Virus record (IMG/VR): IMGVR_UViG_3300035099_000047
Location: 32,001-96,000 of that record
Source: a virus
Length of the DNA: 64,000 nucleotides
Reading direction: 5' to 3' (one strand)
Positions within the stretch are counted from its first letter, which is position 1. Every line of letters starts with the position of its first letter. The position numbers and the translations under genes were made by a program. Below the pieces are notes generated by a model. The model was not told where the DNA came from. It saw only the letters and a list, made by a program, of their open reading frames with translations, and searched no databases. Of the stretch, positions 4,336 through 29,673 are shown one piece after another.

Positions 4336-4897
4336 CTTTAATCCCCTTCTCTCCCACGTACTTGTCCTCTTCCCAACCCGGGAACTTCAATTTACCTGAC
4401 TTAAACAAGGGTCGGAATATCTGAACAATTTCCTTTTCCCATCTTTTCATCATTTTTTCGTATGCTTTGAGATTAACAAGGGTCCCTTGACGACAAAGAT
4501 CCCGACAGCGATCCTGATGCTTGCGCCGTTGCAAATTGAGAAAATGTTGAAGTGAACAACAAGGGTCTCCTTCCCCACACAGTTCGTCTCCGAACATGCC
4601 CTCTTCTGCAGCCAGCTTCCAAGTCCCTTTCCGACACATGTCCGTAAACTCTTTACCTGCAGAACCTGACCACAACAACGTCCCCGGTAGCCACTTTTTT
4701 CCCTCAGCCACTAAGTAAATACGACACCTTTCTGCTTTAGCTATACCTTCACCCGGGTAAGGCTCAGCTGGCCGAATCGCCACATCCTTGCTGCCTATAC
4801 CTTCTCCGAAAGGGTGAAAAAGATCTATTGACTCAGCCATTTCCCGCACACCCGCCGCATGACCCACGTTAGACATTTCAAATCTCCCTTCCAACAT
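4328..4897 (-). CDS. hypothetical protein in the modification cluster
   Basis: 189 aa ORF overlapping both neighbours. Confidence 0.55.
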   Translation of the reverse strand: MLEGRFEMSNVGHAAGVREMAESIDLFHPFGEGIGSKDVAIRPAEPYPGEGIAKAERCRIYLVAEGKKWLPGTLLWSGSAGKEFTDMCRKGTWKLAAEEGMFGDELCGEGDPCCSLQHFLNLQRRKHQDRCRDLCRQGTLVNLKAYEKMMKRWEKEIVQIFRPLFKSGKLKFPGWEEDKYVGEKGIKVE

Positions 4898-5753
4898 TCC
4901 AAAACAACACTGGGTCTTTCAACCCTTTTATTCTACACCTCAACCACTCCCAAGCCTTCAAATCATAGTACCTATGACATGGAAATGGACATTCCACGGT
5001 ACTTGCTTGAGTGTATTCCCAACCCGGGTCCTCCAAGACCAGTGGACTACCACCGAGGCCTCCCCCCATTGGGTAGCCCCGAGCCTCGATTGATTCCTTT
5101 TTATGCTCCAAGTCCCCAGTACGCCCCATCACGCCTATTATTATACCATCCCCAGGCTTCCAACCCCGTAACAAACCCGCACAAACCGTTCCACTGCCCA
5201 CCGGTACCACTGTGGTCGCCGGTCGAATCAACTGAGTAACCGTTTTAACCCATTGATCCGCTGTAGCCTCTACAGTTTCACTCAATGGCAAACCCAACTC
5301 AAGCATTTCTGAACCATTCTTGTACCTATCCTTCAACATTTTCTTGCTGGAGTAATAGTTGATCTTGGCCCGTCCAGCCTCAATAGGCACCAACTCAGCC
5401 CCAAATTCCTTCCATTTGGCCCGGTGTTTCAACAACAATTCATTCGGCTGATTGTATTGAGGATCAAATATCACAGCCCTCATACCCAATTGTTGAGCTA
5501 CCCAAGCCACCCCGACCCCAGCCATGCTAATGGATGTCTCTGTGTATCCCACCACTGAGATCCCATTAGCTTTCAAACTACTCATCTTTTCCCACAGTCC
5601 ACGAACCTTGCTGAACGGAGGACCAGGCGCAGGGCAACATTGGTCTTCCCGCTTGACATACACGGTACGGCCCTTTACTTGATACACCTCCACCGGGGTA
5701 AGGGGATTTAGCTGAATCACACTTTCAAGCCCCACCGCAAACGCTTGCGACAC
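4878..5753 (-). CDS. PLP-dependent enzyme, fold type II (PALP; ACC deaminase/D-cysteine desulfhydrase-like)
   Basis: VYVKREDQ...SKVRG (PLP lysine), VPVGSGTV phosphate loop, YDLKAW. Confidence 0.8.
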   Translation of the reverse strand: MSQAFAVGLESVIQLNPLTPVEVYQVKGRTVYVKREDQCCPAPGPPFSKVRGLWEKMSSLKANGISVVGYTETSISMAGVGVAWVAQQLGMRAVIFDPQYNQPNELLLKHRAKWKEFGAELVPIEAGRAKINYYSSKKMLKDRYKNGSEMLELGLPLSETVEATADQWVKTVTQLIRPATTVVPVGSGTVCAGLLRGWKPGDGIIIGVMGRTGDLEHKKESIEARGYPMGGGLGGSPLVLEDPGWEYTQASTVECPFPCHRYYDLKAWEWLRCRIKGLKDPVLFWNVGREI

Positions 5754-14009: not shown

Positions 14010-14480
14010 TCATTTGGAAGCTTTGACAAATCTACCCCGCTCTCGGGGCTGCTGTTTAGCAGCTTCACTCCACTCCTTGCGGGATCGATCGTCCCAGGGC
14101 AACCCGTTGACATACCTCCAGGGCAATTCGGCCCCCTTGGGAATTAACTGCTCCGTTGCTGGTTCCAGGTCCTGCTCCAACACCTCTACGGGTTGGTTAG
14201 TAACACCCCGAGTCACCAACCAAACCAGCACTGAACTATCAACAGCCAGGTAGGGAGGATCAGATCCACCGTCCGGGTAGCAGGCGTCGTTTGGGTAGCA
14301 GGCGTGAACGTAACGCCCTAAAAACCGCTTGCGGGCTCCCACCACCACACCAACAAAAGGGGTGGTGGTTGTTTCACGGTGGACCCGCTTGTGCTGATCC
14401 TCGTCATAATGGACACTGCAGGTTGCCTTGACCAAAACCCATTGACCAACGTGGAACCGGGGTTTACCTTTTTTGCTCAT
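14010..14480 (-). CDS. hypothetical protein
   Basis: 156 aa ORF in the operon. Confidence 0.55.
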   Translation of the reverse strand: MSKKGKPRFHVGQWVLVKATCSVHYDEDQHKRVHRETTTTPFVGVVVGARKRFLGRYVHACYPNDACYPDGGSDPPYLAVDSSVLVWLVTRGVTNQPVEVLEQDLEPATEQLIPKGAELPWRYVNGLPWDDRSRKEWSEAAKQQPRERGRFVKASK

Positions 14481-14763
14481 TCAATTGTTTCCTCAGTTTT
14501 TCGATATCTTTGATAGTCTGATCCGGCCAGCTACCTGTAGGCCAGACCTTTTCATTGACCTTCATCGCCTCAACTATCAATCCGATAAATCCTTTTTGGA
14601 TCTCAACCTCAGACTTCAGCTCATTTATCTCGTTTTGAGCCTGCCTCAGTTCAGTTTTCAAACGTCTAACCTGAAAAGCAGGATCAACAACAATCATTGC
14701 CATCAGAACCACTCCTGCAATAAAAGTAAGTACCAACAAAACTCGCAGTGAAAGAGTCAACAT
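14464..14763 (-). CDS. membrane-anchored coiled-coil protein
   Basis: N-terminal hydrophobic helix followed by heptad repeats. Confidence 0.55.
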   Translation of the reverse strand: MLTLSLRVLLVLTFIAGVVLMAMIVVDPAFQVRRLKTELRQAQNEINELKSEVEIQKGFIGLIVEAMKVNEKVWPTGSWPDQTIKDIEKLRKQLNEQKR

Positions 14764-15604
14764 GGTTTTTGTCCCTCCAATTTCTCATTGTTCTCAATGT
14801 GGATCACAAACCGTTGACCCCTGACCACCATGAACCGAATGGAGTGATACTGATTGCTTTCGTCCTCCACAACTACTTCAAGATGTTTATCGCAAGGTTG
14901 CAGGTATTTGAGGAACTTGCCAATAGTCATTGTATTCCTCCTATTGGGGACCTTATGCAATTTCCTACCAATAGTAGGTCCCCTTTTTATCCAAATTTCA
15001 ACTTCTTTTGCTGTATTTTACCACAGATAGTGCATCGGCGCTCTTGCCAAATCACTGTTCTAGTTAAAGGTTTCCCAATAGTCACTCCCCCTCGATGATG
15101 TTGGATGCCCCCCAATCTGCCACCTTTTTCTCCCACTGAGTAAATTCCTCACACACATGGACACCCATCAAACGGCCATATAATCGTTTCAATTGTTTCC
15201 ACATTTCCAACCCCTTAGCAATGACCAGACATCAAAGTGGAACCTGCGCAATAAGGAGCAAGAACCATCCTTTTCGTGCACATGGCGTATGAAGTCAATC
15301 TTTGGCTGAAGACCAAAGGAAGGGTCCTCATCGTTCGTTTTCGGCGGCTGCCGACTATCCGAGGGGGGAGTGAACTTCTGTTGATCGGGAATACACGGAA
15401 CTTGCTGTTCGAGTTGTTTTTTCGATCACAAACAACACTCAAACACACTATAACCACACCAACAAACACTATGAAACTAAGGCGGCCCACAGCTTCATCT
15501 ACCACGTAAACAGGTATGGGCTCTGGCATGGTTTTGTCCTAATTCTGCTTTTTGTAAGCAACTGTGTGGATAATCCTTTGAAAGACCCAGATGATAACAT
15601 CCTT

Positions 15605-15949
15605 GTCTAGTCTTGTCGGGTCAGGTCTGGTTTCGTCGAGTCGGGTCGCATCTCGCCTGGTCCGGTCCGGTCTAGTCACGTCCTATCATGTCCAATCCGG
15701 TCTTGCCGTGCCCTGGTCCAGCCTGGTTTGGTTGGGTTTTATTTGGTATAATCTTGTTGCACCCAGCCCTATCTAACCCAATTGTGTCGCGTTGCATCGG
15801 TCTGGTCTAGTCTTGTCTGATCCGGTCTCGTCCCGCCCTGTCTCGCCTGGTCAGGTCCAATCGTGTCATGTTCGATCTGGTTTGGTCTTGTTGGGTCAGG
15901 TCTTGTCAGGTCTAACCTTGTCCTGTCAAGTCTGGTCCAATCTAGTTGT
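15605..15949 (-). repeat. phased pentamer array 1 (about 69 units, RYY-NN on +); candidate guide ncRNA
   Basis: gtcta gtctt gtcgg gtcag gtctg...; a +1 phase slip at 15715 is compensated by a -1 slip at 15799. Confidence 0.9.
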
Positions 15950-15953
15950 GGGG

Positions 15954-16481
15954 TCAAGTATCCTTCATCAGCTCTAACAACTTGCTGGGCTCTATTTGAC
16001 GTAGCCTAGTCCGGCCATCTTGTGAAAGCAAACGCTGTGCCTTATTGTGAAAGCCGCCAGAACTCAGCAATGATTCCATACCCATTTGAGCCGTCCTGAT
16101 ATTCAGTTCCAGTCGTTCCTCTGGGCTCATTTCCGACCGATCAGTCCCAACTGCTATGCGCATCATCCTCTTGGAAAACTTGTGGATGCGCTTGGAACCT
16201 CGATTCAATACCTTTAGTCGGCCCTTTGAATCTAAACACACCCAAGCTTTCTCCTCGGGAAACCACCTCCACGTCACGTTGTAATTGACTTCGGTGTAGT
16301 AAATCGCGTAAGTTACATTGCGGTATCCCGGAGATTTGGAATCGCAGGGCCTACCTACAATTTTGTTCATTTCCTCCAGGGGAATTTTGTCCCCTGGTTT
16401 TCCTTTGCACATGTGTTGAACAGCTGCAGCAGTGTAACTGCTAAGCTCATACATGCGCCTGCCGTCTCCCACGTTACTCAT
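15954..16481 (-). CDS. array-associated basic protein (possible wHTH)
   Basis: 175 aa, good RBS (GAAAGGA), sandwiched between arrays 1 and 2. Confidence 0.7.
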   Translation of the reverse strand: MSNVGDGRRMYELSSYTAAAVQHMCKGKPGDKIPLEEMNKIVGRPCDSKSPGYRNVTYAIYYTEVNYNVTWRWFPEEKAWVCLDSKGRLKVLNRGSKRIHKFSKRMMRIAVGTDRSEMSPEERLELNIRTAQMGMESLLSSGGFHNKAQRLLSQDGRTRLRQIEPSKLLELMKDT

Positions 16482-16499
16482 AAATCGATCCTTTCTTTG

Positions 16500-17064
16500 G
16501 TTAAGTCTCGTCTTGTCTTGTTGTGTCGCGTTCAGTTTTGTCTAGTCTAGTCGGGTCAGGTCACATCGGGTTGGGTCTAGTCTGGTCGGGCCCTGTCATG
16601 CCTTGTCTGGTGTGCTTTGATCGCACCGTGCCCCGTTTAATCTAACCGTGTTGTGCTTGATTAGACCTTGCTTTGTCCAGTCAGGTCATATTGCGTCAAG
16701 TCGGGTCTGGTCCAGTCTCGTCAAGCCTTGTCAGGTCCGGTCTCGTCCAGTCATGTCTAGTCACGTCATGTCCAGTCCAATCCTGTCACGTCATGTCCCG
16801 TCTTGTCATGTCTAGTCAAGTCCGGTCCAGTCGAGTCCTGCCCCGTCCTGTCTAGTCACGTCATGTCCAGTCCAGTCTCGCCCAGTCAGGTTTGGTCTGG
16901 TCCGGCATCGTCCAGCTATATCTAGTCCTGTCTTGTCGCGTCACGTCCAGTCCCGTCACGTCCAGTCGCGTCCAGTCTAGTCCTGTCCCGTCTCGCCTCG
17001 CCTAGTCCAGTCATGTCTCGTCATGTCCTGTCAAGCCGTGTCCTGTCAAGCCTTGTCCTGTCAT
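16500..17064 (-). repeat. phased pentamer array 2 (113 units in unbroken phase); candidate guide ncRNA
   Basis: gttaa gtctc gtctt gtctt gttgt ... gcctt gtcct gtcat. Confidence 0.92.
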
Positions 17065-17076
17065 GACATACTGAGT

Positions 17077-17655
17077 TCATTCGTCGGTTTGGAAGTCCAA
17101 CTTATCAATCCGGAACCGTCCATTGATACCACCGTTTTCCACCCTCATGGCGCCCCAACCAATGAACTGACCAACACACCGCAGATGATCGTGGATCTGA
17201 TCCGGGGTGATTTTGCCGTCAAAGACGTCAAAATCTCCGTGGGCCACCCATTGATGGAACGTTGGGAAAATGCGAGGTACCCGCTTGGTACCTCCATGCT
17301 TACCGTCGGATGGTACCGGAAGGGGGATGGGATCCACGTCTTCGACCGTCATAGGAGATCCATCAGGTTTAAACAATAACACTGATGAACCAGGTGAAAT
17401 ACCCTTGACAAATCGGCTGGCAAAAGTGGTACGACCCTCCACCTTGCGCCCCAACCATTTGGCTGCAGACAGTAGAGAGTTGGTAACGCAGAAGGAATTC
17501 AGGTAACATTGACCTTCTGGGTTGACCCAAAGTTTCTTCTTCCAAATCCTTTCCTCGAACTGTTCATAAGTCTCCCCGTCCTGCTTTTTGTCCAGCAGAT
17601 ACCTGGAAACCATGAGATCAGCCATCCCGATCACTTGAAAAGTAACCTTCAACAT
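17077..17655 (-). CDS. stand-alone Cas7/RAMP-like RNA-binding protein
   Basis: N-terminal strand KVTFQVIG, YLNSFCVTNSLLSAAK (position of the Cas7 IPgssiKG helix), C-terminal glycine-rich loop VGQFIGWGAMRVENGGINGRF. Confidence 0.7.
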   Translation of the reverse strand: MLKVTFQVIGMADLMVSRYLLDKKQDGETYEQFEERIWKKKLWVNPEGQCYLNSFCVTNSLLSAAKWLGRKVEGRTTFASRFVKGISPGSSVLLFKPDGSPMTVEDVDPIPLPVPSDGKHGGTKRVPRIFPTFHQWVAHGDFDVFDGKITPDQIHDHLRCVGQFIGWGAMRVENGGINGRFRIDKLDFQTDE

Positions 17656-17767
17656 ACAAACTTCTCCTTGAAAAGGGCTTCACGACTGATTGGTTCTTGA
17701 GTGTCGGCCCTGTGCCGTACTGCTAACCATGTCTTGCGCTTGCCCTTGATTCACCTAACAAGTTCTT

Positions 17768-18017
17768 GTCTGGTCTAGTTTGGTCTAGTCATATCTCGTC
17801 AGGTCTAGTCTGTTCCCGTCCGGTCCTACCGCGTCTTGTCGGGTCACATCTAGTCACGTCCGATTCCGTCGTGTCTTGTCGGGTCACATCTAGTCACGTC
17901 CGGTCAGGCTTGGTCAGATCATGTCTCGTCATGTCAGGTCGGGCCCAGTCTCGTCAGGTCTAGTCTGGTTTGGTTCGGTCCCGTCTTGTCCCGTCCTGTC
18001 AGATCGGGTCAAGCTAA
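17768..18017 (-). repeat. phased pentamer array 3 (50 units); candidate guide ncRNA
   Basis: gtctg gtcta gtttg gtcta gtcat ... atcgg gtcaa gctaa. Confidence 0.9.
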
Positions 18018-18022
18018 TTACT

Positions 18023-18904
18023 TTATTCTACCAAGAATCGTTTACGCAACTCAGCAATTTCATCGGAATCAGCCTCAGCTGCATCTTTACCAGTTTCCAA
18101 TTTTACTCGATGGGTCTCTCCAGAGTATCTGGCCAACTCGTCAGCCAACCTGTTAGCTCGCCATTGAGCTTGAGTTTCACTGTCAAAACAAACCACCCTG
18201 ACCGGATACTTGATCATTTTGTTCAATTGGGCTGGAGTGTAATTCAATCCCATAGTGGCTACGGCTCCAGGTCCAATGGCCCAAGCATCAGCTGGCCCTT
18301 CCACAATTATTATACACTGTCTGGCCAAATCATTCCCGTAAAGCAACTCTTTTGCAGGAATGGCTTCTTCTGCTACTGGAGCATTACTGTACCGTTTGCC
18401 TTTGTCGCCAATAGAGCGGGTTGTCCAGCTAACTGTTTCACCCCGGTACTGAATAGGTATGAATAGGCTCCAACTGTACCTAGCCGCAATCCCTATGCCT
18501 TGCACACCCCACAACCGAGCTATACGGTCCGGATCAAATCCCCTGCCTTGCAGGTACTTGCGATGAGCCTTGGCCAGCAGTCCTACACCAGGAGGAATTT
18601 TAAGCTTACCTGCTAATCGTTCAGCCCATTTACGATTCCGCTCCCAACCAACACTTTTGAGCAAATCATAGCATTCCAGAACGGACAGATGGGTAGTTTC
18701 AGACAGAGCATCAACTAACCGAATTGACCCACATGACCAGCAATTGGCATAACCTCCGGACACATTGATGCCCAGTCGAAACCGGCCACTGCGGGGACTG
18801 CACCTTGGACAGTCGATTTGCACCCATCCCTCACGAGCGTGCTCATGTTGACCCACCGTGCGAGTCGGTATCCTCAATTCGGCAAGTAATGAATCAATCC
18901 TCAT
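18023..18904 (-). CDS. DNA primase (Zn finger + TOPRIM)
   Basis: CPRC...CWSC, IIVEGPAD, CFDSE, KDAAE. Confidence 0.85.
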   Translation of the reverse strand: MRIDSLLAELRIPTRTVGQHEHAREGWVQIDCPRCSPRSGRFRLGINVSGGYANCWSCGSIRLVDALSETTHLSVLECYDLLKSVGWERNRKWAERLAGKLKIPPGVGLLAKAHRKYLQGRGFDPDRIARLWGVQGIGIAARYSWSLFIPIQYRGETVSWTTRSIGDKGKRYSNAPVAEEAIPAKELLYGNDLARQCIIIVEGPADAWAIGPGAVATMGLNYTPAQLNKMIKYPVRVVCFDSETQAQWRANRLADELARYSGETHRVKLETGKDAAEADSDEIAELRKRFLVE

Positions 18905-19230
18905 GACAACACAGCCTCAGCCCGCTCAACCACAGCCTTGACACGGTTGAAATACTCACGTACAAACTTCATGGCCCGACGCACGGCCTTGTTGGGATCA
19001 GAGTATTGTTTAAGGTTTGGATCGTCCCATATTGACCAACCGCCCCCAGCGTGATCTGGATTGTTTGATACCACGGCCCAATACTCAACCTTGCCATGGA
19101 CTGATATTGGACCATTGTAAGCATAGAACTGCCAGCCGATGTTTTTCCACACCCGTAGCTTCCAGCCCTTACCCTTCAACTTGCGAATCAGAGCCCGACC
19201 TGCTTCAACTGCTTCTCGCTTGGTTTTCAT
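18901..19230 (-). CDS. hypothetical protein
   Basis: ATGA-coupled to the primase; RBS AGGAG. Confidence 0.55.
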   Translation of the reverse strand: MKTKREAVEAGRALIRKLKGKGWKLRVWKNIGWQFYAYNGPISVHGKVEYWAVVSNNPDHAGGGWSIWDDPNLKQYSDPNKAVRRAMKFVREYFNRVKAVVERAEAVLS

Positions 19231-27420: not shown

Positions 27421-27672
27421 TCAAACTTTCGCTGGAACTTGCTTCCATTGCCTTACCATTTCGGGGGTCCACCAACCATGCCCCCTGGGCCTATGGTCCG
27501 GCAACGGGTACGCCTCCCCAACCTCTATCTCCAGGATGACACTCCGTTGAGTCCTTTTGCCCCAATCCGCCGCCGACTGGTAGAATCTCCAAAACCTCAC
27601 AGGGGGTAAAATACAGCCTGTGGAAACATACCTAGCTAACTTCGCGGGGGTGGTCACATGATACCCTACCAT
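27421..27672 (-). CDS. small protein, possible ADP-ribosyltransferase-like fold
   Basis: YHVT...GCILP...VILEIEV pattern; weak. Confidence 0.3.
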   Translation of the reverse strand: MVGYHVTTPAKLARYVSTGCILPPVRFWRFYQSAADWGKRTQRSVILEIEVGEAYPLPDHRPRGHGWWTPEMVRQWKQVPAKV

Positions 27673-27879
27673 TTTCCTCTTCCCTAAAGAATCTGACCAA
27701 TGCCCGCAAAAAAGCGTCTTGCACCTCCTTGGAACATGAATCAACCAACATGTGGTCCAGAAACAGCGGGATAAGATAGTCGCCCCGCCTTTCGATCTTG
27801 GACAGCTTGGACACTTCCCTATCGAACACCAAGCTCAGTACATTCCAATCCATAGCAGTCTCCTTTCATTCACTGCCTT

Positions 27880-28158
27880 TCAACATCGTGCGCGATGCAG
27901 CAGACGACGGAATTGGATTTCTTGTTCGAGAGCGGTGAACACGTCCGCGACCAAGCGAATCATTATGTTGGCGCGTCCATCCAGCAATCGGGTGACGAAC
28001 CCCTTGCTTCTTCCCATCCGCCGGGCAAGCTCCGCGCGGGTGACACCTTCCCTCTCCATGACTTCACAAATCAACTCGGTCAATTCAAGCATCGCCCGCT
28101 CTCGGTTGAATCCCCGCTTTCCCATCTCGGTTGAAACAACCTTTTTAACAAACGTCAT
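27880..28158 (-). CDS. XRE-family HTH protein
   Basis: GVTRAELARRMGRSKGFVTRLLDG. Confidence 0.8.
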   Translation of the reverse strand: MTFVKKVVSTEMGKRGFNRERAMLELTELICEVMEREGVTRAELARRMGRSKGFVTRLLDGRANIMIRLVADVFTALEQEIQFRRLLHRARC

Positions 28159-28439
28159 AATACATCCTCCGTCACGGTCTGATTGGATGCCGCCTTCGCT
28201 TTCAAAACAGCGGCTACGGGATCAAGATCATAAAATACTTGGCCTGGCATCCCGGGGGACTTGTATGCCATAAATACTCCGTTCTTACCCCCAAGGTACC
28301 TTCTGACCACATCAACGGCCCCAGACCGAAGCGACTCCCACGCTTCATGCTTCCGCTCTTGTTCGTCACTCATTATTGTGCTCCTTTACTAATCTTCACC
28401 ATTCCCACCCCTGCCGCAGCAGAGGTGGAGGGGAGGTAG

Positions 28440-28826
28440 TTAGGTCTTCGGGGTCTTTTGTAGGACGACACTCAATTCTGGCTCCGCACCACCAAAGGCG
28501 GTGCGGACCATCTCCGGCTCGCCGTTAATGGCGGCGAGCCTGTCGAGGTCCCCATCAATGGGGACCTCGATGAGGTCTGGCCTGGGCAAGTGCTCTGTCC
28601 CGCGCTTCGCGCCCAGAAACGCGGGGGGAATATCGGACTTTCCGGAGGCCCAGAGTTCGAGGGCCTCGAGGATGCCCGCGGTATAGCGGACATCGCCCCA
28701 ATAGCCCCTGAACTGTTCCGCTCGCTCTACATCGTCGGCGAGCGCCGCCAAGCACAACTTGCGGGCTAGCTTGTAGCCCGGCATGGCCCGACGGCCGCAC
28801 TGGTGTTCGCCCCAGTAGGTCAACAT
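28440..28826 (-). CDS. hypothetical protein (GC-rich island)
   Basis: RBS AAGGAG, 128 aa. Confidence 0.5.
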   Translation of the reverse strand: MLTYWGEHQCGRRAMPGYKLARKLCLAALADDVERAEQFRGYWGDVRYTAGILEALELWASGKSDIPPAFLGAKRGTEHLPRPDLIEVPIDGDLDRLAAINGEPEMVRTAFGGAEPELSVVLQKTPKT

Positions 28827-28920
28827 GTTTTTTCTCCTTGCTTTCCCGGCCTGTTCTCCGGCCAGGTCCGAGTTGCCAGCACCATGCCGGTCCGACTATC
28901 CAAAAAACACCCGAGTAGGC

Positions 28921-29250
28921 TCATGGTGAGGTCCTCCACGTTATCACATACCAGTCAACCCAGGCCTCCCAGCTTCCGAAAGTAGCTCCTTCTGGGAGCC
29001 GCAGGCCCCTATACTGCCCAACCAGGGCTGGGCAATTCGGGGCCAAAGTAACAGAGACCCACCGAGGCTCAACGGGGACCCCGAGCAGGTTGGAGAAGAT
29101 CGCCGCCGTGTCAGCATGGCCGACTGCGGACTCAACACCCTTGCTGCGGCACATGGCCGCAGCCTCGCCAGCGCTGATGACCCGGACTTCTAAATTCCCC
29201 AAGGGGGAATCCGGGAGCATGTTCAGCGAAATCGCATTTAGCAACAACAT
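28921..29250 (-). CDS. acrIII-1: DUF1874/STIV B116-family protein; putative AcrIII-1 cA4 ring nuclease
   Basis: LLNAISLNML, SAVGHADTA (catalytic GH), LLGVPV, RLPEG; likely start ATG 29250. Confidence 0.75.
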   Translation of the reverse strand: MLLLNAISLNMLPDSPLGNLEVRVISAGEAAAMCRSKGVESAVGHADTAAIFSNLLGVPVEPRWVSVTLAPNCPALVGQYRGLRLPEGATFGSWEAWVDWYVITWRTSP

Positions 29251-29270
29251 TTTCGGCTTCTTAAGATGCT

Positions 29271-29319
29271 TGACTGCCACCACCCCGCTTCTCTCGGCGA
29301 GAGGGGCGGGGGGCAGTCA
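29271..29319. repeat. GC-rich stem-loop, one of three related copies
   Basis: TGACTGCC..CCCCGC..GCGGGG..GGCAGTCA; relatives at about 28403-28442 and 29612-29663. Confidence 0.6.
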
Positions 29320-29673
29320 CTACTCCTCCTCCTCAACCGCCCTCATTGGTCACTTGCGGCGCTTTGCGCCGGGAGATTTGGATGATACGCGGTTCGGCGC
29401 CACCGCACAGCACCCAATTGTGCACGTCGAACCACGTCTTCTCTAGCCGGATTCTTTCATGCTCTAGCCTGTCAAATACCGGCTGTGCGATGGCCCTGCG
29501 CGCTAGACAGCGCGCCCGCAGGTCTTCGCCCTTGATGTCGTTGTTGGTCATGGGTTCTCTCCTTTTTTGCTTTTTTGTCCTGTAGACACACGGCTTCAAC
29601 CGCTGGCCTATTGACTGCCCTCACCCCGCCCCTGCTGCAAGAGTGGCGGAGGGGAGGCGGTCACTCACCAACC

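What the first reader, a model, noticed from the sequence alone, without database searches (positions are those of the whole stretch)
15605..18017. Stand-alone Cas7/RAMP-like gene flanked by three phased 'constant triplet + variable dinucleotide' arrays: candidate RNA-guided system with a gapped guide code
Seen: the coding-strand order is primase - array 3 (50 units) - 192 aa RAMP-like gene - array 2 (113 units) - 175 aa gene - array 1 (about 69 units). Each array starts 5-13 nt after a stop codon. Each 5-nt unit has a conserved triplet (+ strand GTC, variants ATC/GCC/GTT/ACC; RRY, mostly GAC, on the mRNA strand) and a free dinucleotide. All 16 dinucleotides occur, and phase holds for 565 nt. 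Triplet variation is almost all transitions while NN is unconstrained, unlike a decaying microsatellite. No cas1/2/5/6 or repeat-spacer array is in the window. Known: Cas7 RAMPs polymerise on guide RNA with fixed periodicity. Inference: one subunit binds each pentamer by its triplet, and the NN positions together spell a non-contiguous target, for example in a competing phage or the host. From memory, phage systems of this design with GGY-NN units were recently reported under the name VIPR; I cannot verify that here. This locus would be a GAC-type variant with unusually long arrays.
Basis: partly seen in the sequence, partly recalled or inferred. Interest (0 to 1): 0.95.

Follow-up and report, generated by a model that had tools for sequence, protein, structure and literature searches.

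The report
Phage VIPR locus with GAC-NN guides
A 172-kb phage carries a VIPR system, a recently described CRISPR relative made of a small Cas7-like protein, a helper gene and guide-RNA arrays of five-base units; it uses the already reported GAC-NN unit and has unusually long arrays without visible separators, so it is a clean further example and not a new kind.

Summary
On the strand that carries the genes, three non-coding arrays of 49, 113 and 69 five-base units (RRY-NN, mostly GAC-NN) alternate with a 192-aa gene and a 175-aa gene downstream of a primase.

The 192-aa protein belongs to the Vipr family. A profile of its relatives matches the Vipr of Escherichia phage SUSP1 (hhalign 98.4%, E 5e-15; the PDB chain named "SUSP1 Vipr protein", E 2e-12). 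Its model matches Cas7/Csm3 (Z 12).

In 26 of 30 related loci, RRY-NN arrays lie beside the gene on its sense strand, whatever the neighbouring genes. The 175-aa partner is found in 22 loci and has a winged-helix N-terminus.

VIPR was published in April 2026, and GAC/NN units were reported in October 2026 (bioRxiv 10.64898/2026.10.21.760802). This scan had already found GAC-type VIPR loci on other DNA.

Three things stand out here:
- the array length, 565 nt in perfect register;
- no repeated tail, although most relatives have one;
- residues at SUSP1's GGY contacts that differ with the triplet type.

No natural target was found. Transcription and binding are untested.

The parts
18023..18904 (-). 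DNA primase (Toprim), the gene upstream of the cassette; context only
   Evidence: Pfam Toprim_2 E 9.5e-6; phrog_47 DNA primase E 3e-32
17766..18015 (-). Array 3 (5'-most): 49 RRY-NN units, 36 of them GAC; holds a 30-nt exact in-register duplication 8 units apart
17656..17765 (-). 110-nt spacer between array 3 and vipr; ends in the ribosome-binding site AAGGAG; moderately structured
   Evidence: sequence; fold z -1.7
17077..17655 (-). vipr: 192-aa minimal RAMP with a C-terminal glycine-rich loop (ENGGINGRF)
   Evidence: AF2 pLDDT 90.9; Foldseek top hits all Cas7-type subunits (Csm3, Cmr, Cas7), E 9e-6; VIA-align Z 12.1 to Csm3; hhalign to SUSP1 Vipr 98.4%, E 5.4e-15; profile hit to PDB 36pp_D 'SUSP1 Vipr protein' E 2e-12
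16503..17067 (-). Array 2: 113 units in unbroken 5-nt phase, 79 GAC; a degenerate but still RRY block at units 80-96; a 26-nt exact duplication 19 units apart; runs straight into the ribosome-binding site of the next gene
15954..16481 (-). 175-aa accessory gene (vap-like): winged-helix N-terminal domain plus helical C-terminal part
   Evidence: conserved beside vipr in 22 loci; AF2 pLDDT 91.7; residues 14-83 match winged-helix domains, Z 7.5 rmsd 2.3 over 66 residues to PurR N-domain and Z 7.2 to NaeI; weak MarR-family Foldseek rows
15603..15947 (-). Array 1 (3'-most): 69 units, 34 GAC; two one-base register slips around a degenerate middle block
15530..15602 (-). Sequence 3' of array 1 with a hairpin that pairs with the last two units; possible 3' end structure
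   Evidence: fold -18.4 kcal/mol, z -2.6, 2 of 200 shuffles fold as well

Best explanation
This is a VIPR (Viral Interference Programmable Repeat) system of a large lytic-type phage.

Shown here:
- The 192-aa gene encodes a Vipr-family minimal RAMP.
- It sits with a conserved winged-helix partner gene.
- Three non-coding arrays of GAC-NN (more loosely RRY-NN) pentamers lie on the same strand.
- The same arrangement recurs in dozens of unrelated viral contigs.

Inferred from the SUSP1 work:
- The arrays are transcribed with the genes.
- One Vipr protomer binds each pentamer and sequesters the fixed triplet.
- The exposed NN pairs read double-stranded DNA in a gapped register, one base skipped per unit in SUSP1.
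- This silences genes of a competing mobile element.

The fixed triplet is GAC and not GGY. The residues that hold G1 and G2 in SUSP1 (R138, D177, W178) are F130, A169 and M170 here. R179, which contacts the pyrimidine, is kept as R171.

This locus, like its closest relative with context (L027), has no repeated tail inside its arrays, unlike most relatives. How the 250- to 565-nt repeat tracts are cut into guides, or whether they are cut at all, is open.
For: Protein:
- hhalign of a 127-sequence family profile against SUSP1 Vipr gives 98.4%, E 5.4e-15, over 169 columns.
- hmmsearch of the same profile against PDB sequences hits 'SUSP1 Vipr protein' at E 2e-12.
- The AF2 model (pLDDT 90.9) matches Csm3/Cmr4/Cas7 at Z 12.1 to 9 and Foldseek E 9e-6.

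Arrays:
- 231 units, 224 of them RRY; NN is near maximum entropy; transitions to transversions 94:8 in the triplet.

Linkage:
- 26 of 30 homolog loci have runs of 8 or more RRY-NN units on the sense strand within 1.6 kb of the gene. Three short runs (8-9 units) lie farther off or on the other strand, two of them inside the arrays' span. Neighbouring genes differ between loci: portal, DNA polymerase A, integrase, terminase, primase.
- Most relatives show the published vrRNA layout of about 10-33 units plus a conserved tail of about 25-30 nt.

Partner: present in 22 loci, with a winged-helix N-terminus. Published vap genes of types II, VI and VII are likewise predicted DNA binders.

Pocket residues: they differ with the triplet type. 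GGY has R/D/W/R, GAC has F/(A,S)/M/R, CRC has F/R/F/R. In SUSP1, changing GGY to GAY abolished silencing, so a clade-specific pocket is expected.

Print: VIPR mechanism; GAC/NN units next to Vipr-like folds.
Against: There are no expression or binding data for this locus.

No natural target was found. NN composition does not resemble codon positions 1-2 of this phage's genes, which is what the wobble-skip targets of SUSP1 would suggest.

About 35% of units depart from GAC, and there are long degenerate blocks, so part of the arrays may be inert.

There is no repeated tail and no Rfam ribozyme inside the arrays, unlike the published 9-16-unit vrRNAs.

The partner shows no detectable sequence relation to SUSP1 vap1 (hhalign 3%).
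Confidence: 0.85

Rival explanations
1. The locus is a VIPR system, but most of the long arrays are inert. They would have been expanded by in-register duplication and slippage and would be decaying by mutation, with only short stretches, for instance the 3' ends, still serving as guides.
For: Exact in-register duplications of 30 nt and 26 nt. Degenerate blocks in arrays 1 and 2. 35% of units are not GAC. No targets for eight seeds. NN composition is close to the genome background. All three arrays end in GACAA GAC-type units like the conserved last units of relatives' guides.
Against: Departures from GAC are 94 transitions to 8 transversions, and 224 of 231 units stay RRY, even inside the degenerate blocks. 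That points to continued selection on the triplet. Array 2 has no indel in 565 nt.
Confidence: 0.08
2. The arrays act mainly as decoys or sponges. Long tail-less GAC-NN transcripts would soak up the Vipr proteins of rival GAC-type phages, or redirect them, as satellite solo vrRNAs redirect SUSP1 VIPR.
For: Solo and decoy vrRNAs are documented for the SUSP1 satellites (abstract). The arrays here are far longer than any single guide and have no tails.
Against: The phage encodes its own intact vipr and partner with good ribosome-binding sites between the arrays. That is the standard effector layout found in relatives.
Confidence: 0.04
3. The repeats work as DNA and not as RNA: either a field of 5'-GTC-3' primase recognition sites beside the primase gene, or iterons for the winged-helix protein.
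For: The plus strand reads GTC every 5 nt next to a Toprim primase. T7-type primases recognise GTC (textbook knowledge, not tested here). The partner has a winged-helix domain.
Against: In the other loci the arrays follow the vipr gene and not a primase. Neighbours there are portal, polymerase, integrase and terminase genes, and the arrays are always on the vipr sense strand. One relative uses GAA and two use CRC. The protein's homolog binds such repeats as RNA.
Confidence: 0.03

Closest known systems
Type II VIPR of Escherichia phage SUSP1 (Vipr, vap1, four vrRNAs); bioRxiv 10.64898/2026.04.26.720920, 10.64898/2026.04.26.720927, 10.64898/2026.10.15.759431
   Same: Homologous Vipr protein of the same size (192 against 195 aa). 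A two-gene cassette with arrays upstream and downstream on the sense strand. Pentamer units with a fixed triplet and a free dinucleotide. Phage-borne, with no cas1/cas2 and no CRISPR array. I re-read the SUSP1 locus itself in KT454805 at 27500-29520.
   Different: The triplet is GAC (RRY) and not GGY. The G1 and G2 contact residues differ. Arrays have 49-113 units and not 9-16. There is no repeated pseudoknot tail. The partner is 175 aa with no detectable sequence similarity to vap1. No target is known.
Non-canonical VIPR arrays (GAC/NN, CAC/NN and others) found by entropy periodicity; bioRxiv 10.64898/2026.10.21.760802, section 2.3
   Same: The same unit type (GAC/NN) next to a Vipr-like fold. 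The CRC-NN arrays I saw beside distant homologs (L024, L026) fit their CAC/NN class.
   Different: As far as its text was read here (search hits), that report is a cluster-level survey; those passages give no pocket residues, partner gene or array architecture. I could not check whether this locus or its clade is among their 21 clusters.
CRISPR-Cas class 1 backbone subunits (Cas7, Csm3, Cmr4)
   Same: RRM core, glycine-rich loop and thumb hairpin; best structural matches at Z 12 to 9.
   Different: About 10% sequence identity. No Cas5, Cas6, large subunit or adaptation genes were noticed, and there is no repeat-spacer array. The period is 5 nt and not 6.

Membership tests
VIPR system | Vipr protein: a minimal single-RRM RAMP with glycine-rich loop and thumb, homologous to described Vipr proteins | tested here: met
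   hhalign 98.4%, E 5.4e-15 to SUSP1 Vipr; PDB sequence hit 36pp_D E 2e-12; RAMP fold Z 12.1
VIPR system | Tandem pentanucleotide arrays with a fixed triplet and hypervariable NN, beside vipr on its strand | tested here: met
   231 units, triplet 1.3-1.4 bits per position, NN 0.01-0.08 bits; the same in 26 of 30 homolog loci
VIPR system | Canonical GGY triplet | tested here: not met
   GAC in 149 units and GGY in only 25 of 231. Not disqualifying: GAC/NN is a reported non-canonical unit
VIPR system | vrRNA of about 9-16 repeats followed by a conserved structured 3' tail | tested here: not met
   No repeated tail in the three arrays. The degenerate blocks do not fold better than shuffles (z -1.0 and +0.2). 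Only a hairpin after array 1 (z -2.6). Relatives L006, L009, L018, L028, L031 and L032 do have tails. Published staggered arrays of overlapping vrRNAs may be tail-less too; that figure could not be seen
VIPR system | Accessory vap gene next to vipr | tested here: inconclusive
   A conserved partner is present in 22 loci and has a winged-helix domain, but it has no sequence link to SUSP1 vap1. The other published vap families were not available for comparison
VIPR system | Arrays transcribed and the RNA bound by Vipr | not testable with these tools
   Needs small-RNA sequencing or pull-down. Consensus scans gave promoter- and terminator-like sites at or below the shuffled expectation, none a strong terminator on the gene strand between the cassette genes; this is weak
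VIPR system | NN code matches natural DNA targets under the one-base-skip rule | tested here: inconclusive
   No match above shuffled controls in the phage's own genome or in 269 kb of related loci. Seed scans of public collections gave chance-level hits only
CRISPR-Cas class 1 effector | Repeat-spacer array and further cas genes (Cas5, Cas6, large subunit, Cas1-Cas2) | tested here: not met
   No CRISPR-like repeat in the window. The neighbours are primase, helicase and small unknown genes. Cas profiles were not run over the whole window

The most novel reading that the evidence does not exclude
Tail-less arrays of 50-113 units are handled differently from the published 9-16-unit vrRNAs. Either very long Vipr filaments form on the whole tract, or any run of consecutive units serves as a guide, giving a sliding library of overlapping guides. 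Alternatively the tracts serve as sponges against rival GAC-type Vipr proteins.
Probability: 0.15. Interest if true: 0.6.

Novelty: new member of a known kind. Interest (0 to 1): 0.3.

Why it matters
It adds a well-resolved GAC-type VIPR locus from a large uncultured phage. It also shows that the whole clade (686 clusters at 50% identity with E up to 0.001 in the protein search) carries such arrays on the sense strand.

The comparison of pocket residues with triplet type (GGY, GAC, CRC) gives a testable hypothesis for how Vipr proteins choose their fixed triplet. That would be useful if orthogonal Vipr and guide pairs are wanted for multiplexed gene silencing.

The long unpunctuated arrays raise a concrete question about guide biogenesis. 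None of this changes the picture already drawn by the 2026 preprints.

Tried and rejected
1. Targets in the phage's own genome. I slid 10-unit windows with skips of 0, 1, 2 and 3 bases over the 172-kb genome with the arrays masked. The best matches were 16-18 of 20 bases, the same as with shuffled NN order.

2. Targets in related loci, including relatives' vipr and partner genes. With 12-unit windows over 269 kb, nothing exceeded the shuffles.

3. Exact seed scans under the one-base-skip rule:
- five 9-unit seeds from this window in viral contigs;
- one 10-unit seed in metagenome contigs and one in genome contigs;
- two seeds from delimited guides of relatives L009 and L018.
Each gave 0-2 hits, as chance predicts. 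None extended beyond one further unit. Exact seeds at unknown guide boundaries are a weak test, so this says little.

4. Host. There are no tRNA genes in the window, and the best isolate matches to the SNF2 helicase are only 29-33% identical and come from many phyla. No host taxon could be chosen for a targeted scan.

5. tblastn of the 192-aa protein against 50,697 isolate phage records found nothing. The link to SUSP1 needs profiles.

6. Rfam over 15000-19000 gave nothing relevant, so there are no hammerhead-type separators.

7. The two degenerate blocks align at 69% identity, but much of that comes from the shared period. They do not fold better than shuffles. I do not call them tails.

8. 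The word-based homolog search for the 175-aa protein found only the protein itself. Its relatives were recovered from the neighbourhoods of vipr homologs instead.

9. A repeat-protein reading is rejected, because no ORF inside an array exceeds about 65 aa.

Full report
**What is in the sequence.** All genes between 15,200 and 21,400 lie on the minus strand. Read 5' to 3' on that strand, the order is:
- a Toprim primase, 18904-18023 (Pfam Toprim_2, phrog_47);
- array 3, 18015-17766;
- a 192-aa gene, 17655-17077;
- array 2, 17067-16503;
- a 175-aa gene, 16481-15954;
- array 1, 15947-15603.

A register-aware parse gives 51, 113 and 69 units. Of the 231 five-base units, 149 begin with GAC and 224 fit RRY. 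Departures from GAC are 94 transitions and 8 transversions. The triplet positions carry 1.29-1.39 bits and the two N positions 0.01 and 0.08 bits. All 16 dinucleotides occur.

Array 2 holds its phase for 565 nt, and array 1 has two one-base slips. The arrays start 5-13 nt after the stop codons. They are the only 5-nt-periodic tracts in the window and in the whole 172,227-base virus record. No ORF inside them exceeds about 65 aa.

**The 192-aa protein.** Pfam gives nothing and PHROGs only a weak family of unknown function. The word-index search found 28 relatives. The exhaustive search found 686 clusters at E up to 0.001.

With the 28-sequence alignment, AlphaFold2 gives a confident model (pLDDT 90.9). 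Its best Foldseek matches are all Cas7-type subunits (Csm3, Cmr, Cas7; E 9e-6). An independent all-against-representatives alignment puts Csm3 at Z 12.1 (rmsd 3.9 over 156 residues), followed by about 25 more RAMP chains before the first unrelated fold. A conserved C-terminal glycine-rich loop (ENGGINGRF) is visible in the alignment.

**What is in print.** VIPR systems were described in April 2026. The published account has these parts:
- a minimal RAMP, Vipr;
- an accessory vap gene;
- vrRNAs of 9-16 YNNGG repeats followed by a structured tail;
- one protomer bound per repeat;
- the NN pairs reading double-stranded DNA with one base skipped per unit;
- transcriptional silencing of competing phages and satellites.

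I fetched the SUSP1 genome (KT454805). Its locus is at about 27,500-29,520, and the GGT-NN repeats are readable there.

A 127-sequence profile of the present family aligns to SUSP1 Vipr over its full length at 98.4% probability, E 5.4e-15. The same profile hits the PDB chain named "SUSP1 Vipr protein" at E 2e-12. Membership in the Vipr family is therefore shown by sequence as well as by fold.

**Linkage to arrays.** I collected 30 loci that encode relatives. In 26 of them, runs of at least 8 RRY-NN units lie within 1.6 kb of the gene on its sense strand. One 9-unit run lies farther away on that strand, and two 8-unit runs lie on the opposite strand, both within the arrays' span. The four exceptions are one locus with GAA-NN, two with CRC-NN and one with arrays too short for the threshold.

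The neighbouring genes differ from locus to locus: portal, DNA polymerase A, integrase with a repressor, terminase. So the arrays travel with vipr and not with the primase. This removes the otherwise tempting reading of the plus-strand GTC as a field of primase recognition sites.

**The partner gene.** The 175-aa protein has recognisable relatives beside vipr in 22 loci. Its model (pLDDT 91.7) has the helix-strand-helix-helix-strand-strand order of a winged helix at residues 14-83. That region matches the PurR N-domain (Z 7.5, rmsd 2.3, 66 residues) and NaeI (Z 7.2). A helical C-terminal half follows. Foldseek gives only weak MarR-type rows.

These scores are in the range where a shared common fold is all that can be claimed. 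Published vap genes of types II, VI and VII are also predicted DNA binders. I found no sequence link to SUSP1 vap1 (hhalign 3%).

**How this locus differs from its relatives.** Most relatives have the published layout. Modules of about 10-33 GAC-NN units end in conserved units (GACAA GAC..) and a 25-30-nt tail that is repeated within the locus and often forms a hairpin.

Here, and in the closest relative with context (L027, 60% identity), no such tail recurs. The arrays are continuous, apart from a degenerate but still RRY block in arrays 1 and 2. These blocks do not fold better than shuffles (z -1.0 and +0.2). Rfam finds no ribozyme.

All three arrays end in GACAA GAC-type units, as relatives' guides do. 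A hairpin follows array 1 (z -2.6). Exact in-register duplications of 30 and 26 nt show that the arrays grow by segmental duplication.

**Triplet choice.** In SUSP1, G1 is read by H17 and D177, and G2 by R138 and W178. The pyrimidine is held partly by R179. A GGY-to-GAY change abolished silencing.

In the alignments, R138, D177, W178 and R179 correspond to F130, A169 (Ser in many relatives), M170 and R171 in the GAC clade. In the two CRC-type proteins they correspond to F, R, F and R. The pyrimidine contact is kept, and the purine contacts change with the triplet. This is an inference from alignments and not a structure.

**Targets.** Nothing above shuffled controls was found in the phage's own genome or in the related loci, for skips of 0-3 bases. 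Nine exact seed scans of the public collections gave only chance-level hits that did not extend. NN composition looks like genome background and not like codon positions 1-2. The host is unknown. The targeting step therefore rests on homology alone.

**Novelty.** The system is published. The GAC/NN unit was reported on 22 Oct 2026 as one of several non-canonical units next to Vipr-like folds, together with CAC/NN. Earlier follow-ups in this scan had already described GAC-type VIPR loci on other DNA; one of those notes led me to that preprint.

What this locus adds is a clean example with unusually long, tail-less arrays, a conserved winged-helix partner for the clade, and the pocket comparison. 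I rate it a new member of a known kind, with interest 0.3.

Noticed in passing
L026:3520-3840 and 4495-5010; L024:465-960: Distant Vipr homologs (34% identity) are flanked on their sense strand by about 60-100 units of NN-CRC pentamers (CGC or CAC fixed), also without obvious tails. This fits the CAC/NN class of the October 2026 preprint. Their proteins have F/R/F/R at the SUSP1 triplet-contact positions.
   Followed up: partly
L003:4916-5000 and 5581-5655: A homolog on a 647-kb metagenome contig uses GAA-NN units, a purine at the third position, in two short arrays of 11-13 units that end in GAGGA GA.. and a run of T.
   Followed up: no
L001:9036-9105: A solo array of 11 GAC-NN units with the same TTTTC ending sits between the DNA polymerase A and clamp-loader-like genes, 3.4 kb from the vipr cassette of that phage.
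   Followed up: no
L030:5838-6017: In one relative, the gene right after the downstream array is a CsrA homolog (an RNA-binding regulator) and not the usual partner. The partner there lies upstream of vipr.
   Followed up: no
window 17766-18015 and 16503-17067: There are exact in-register duplications inside the arrays: 30 nt repeated 40 nt apart in array 3, and 26 nt repeated 95 nt apart in array 2. They suggest growth by segmental duplication.
   Followed up: yes
window 14464-14763: A 99-aa protein with a LapA-like membrane domain and a weak Rz-like spanin match lies just downstream of the cassette, in a run of small unknown genes.
   Followed up: no
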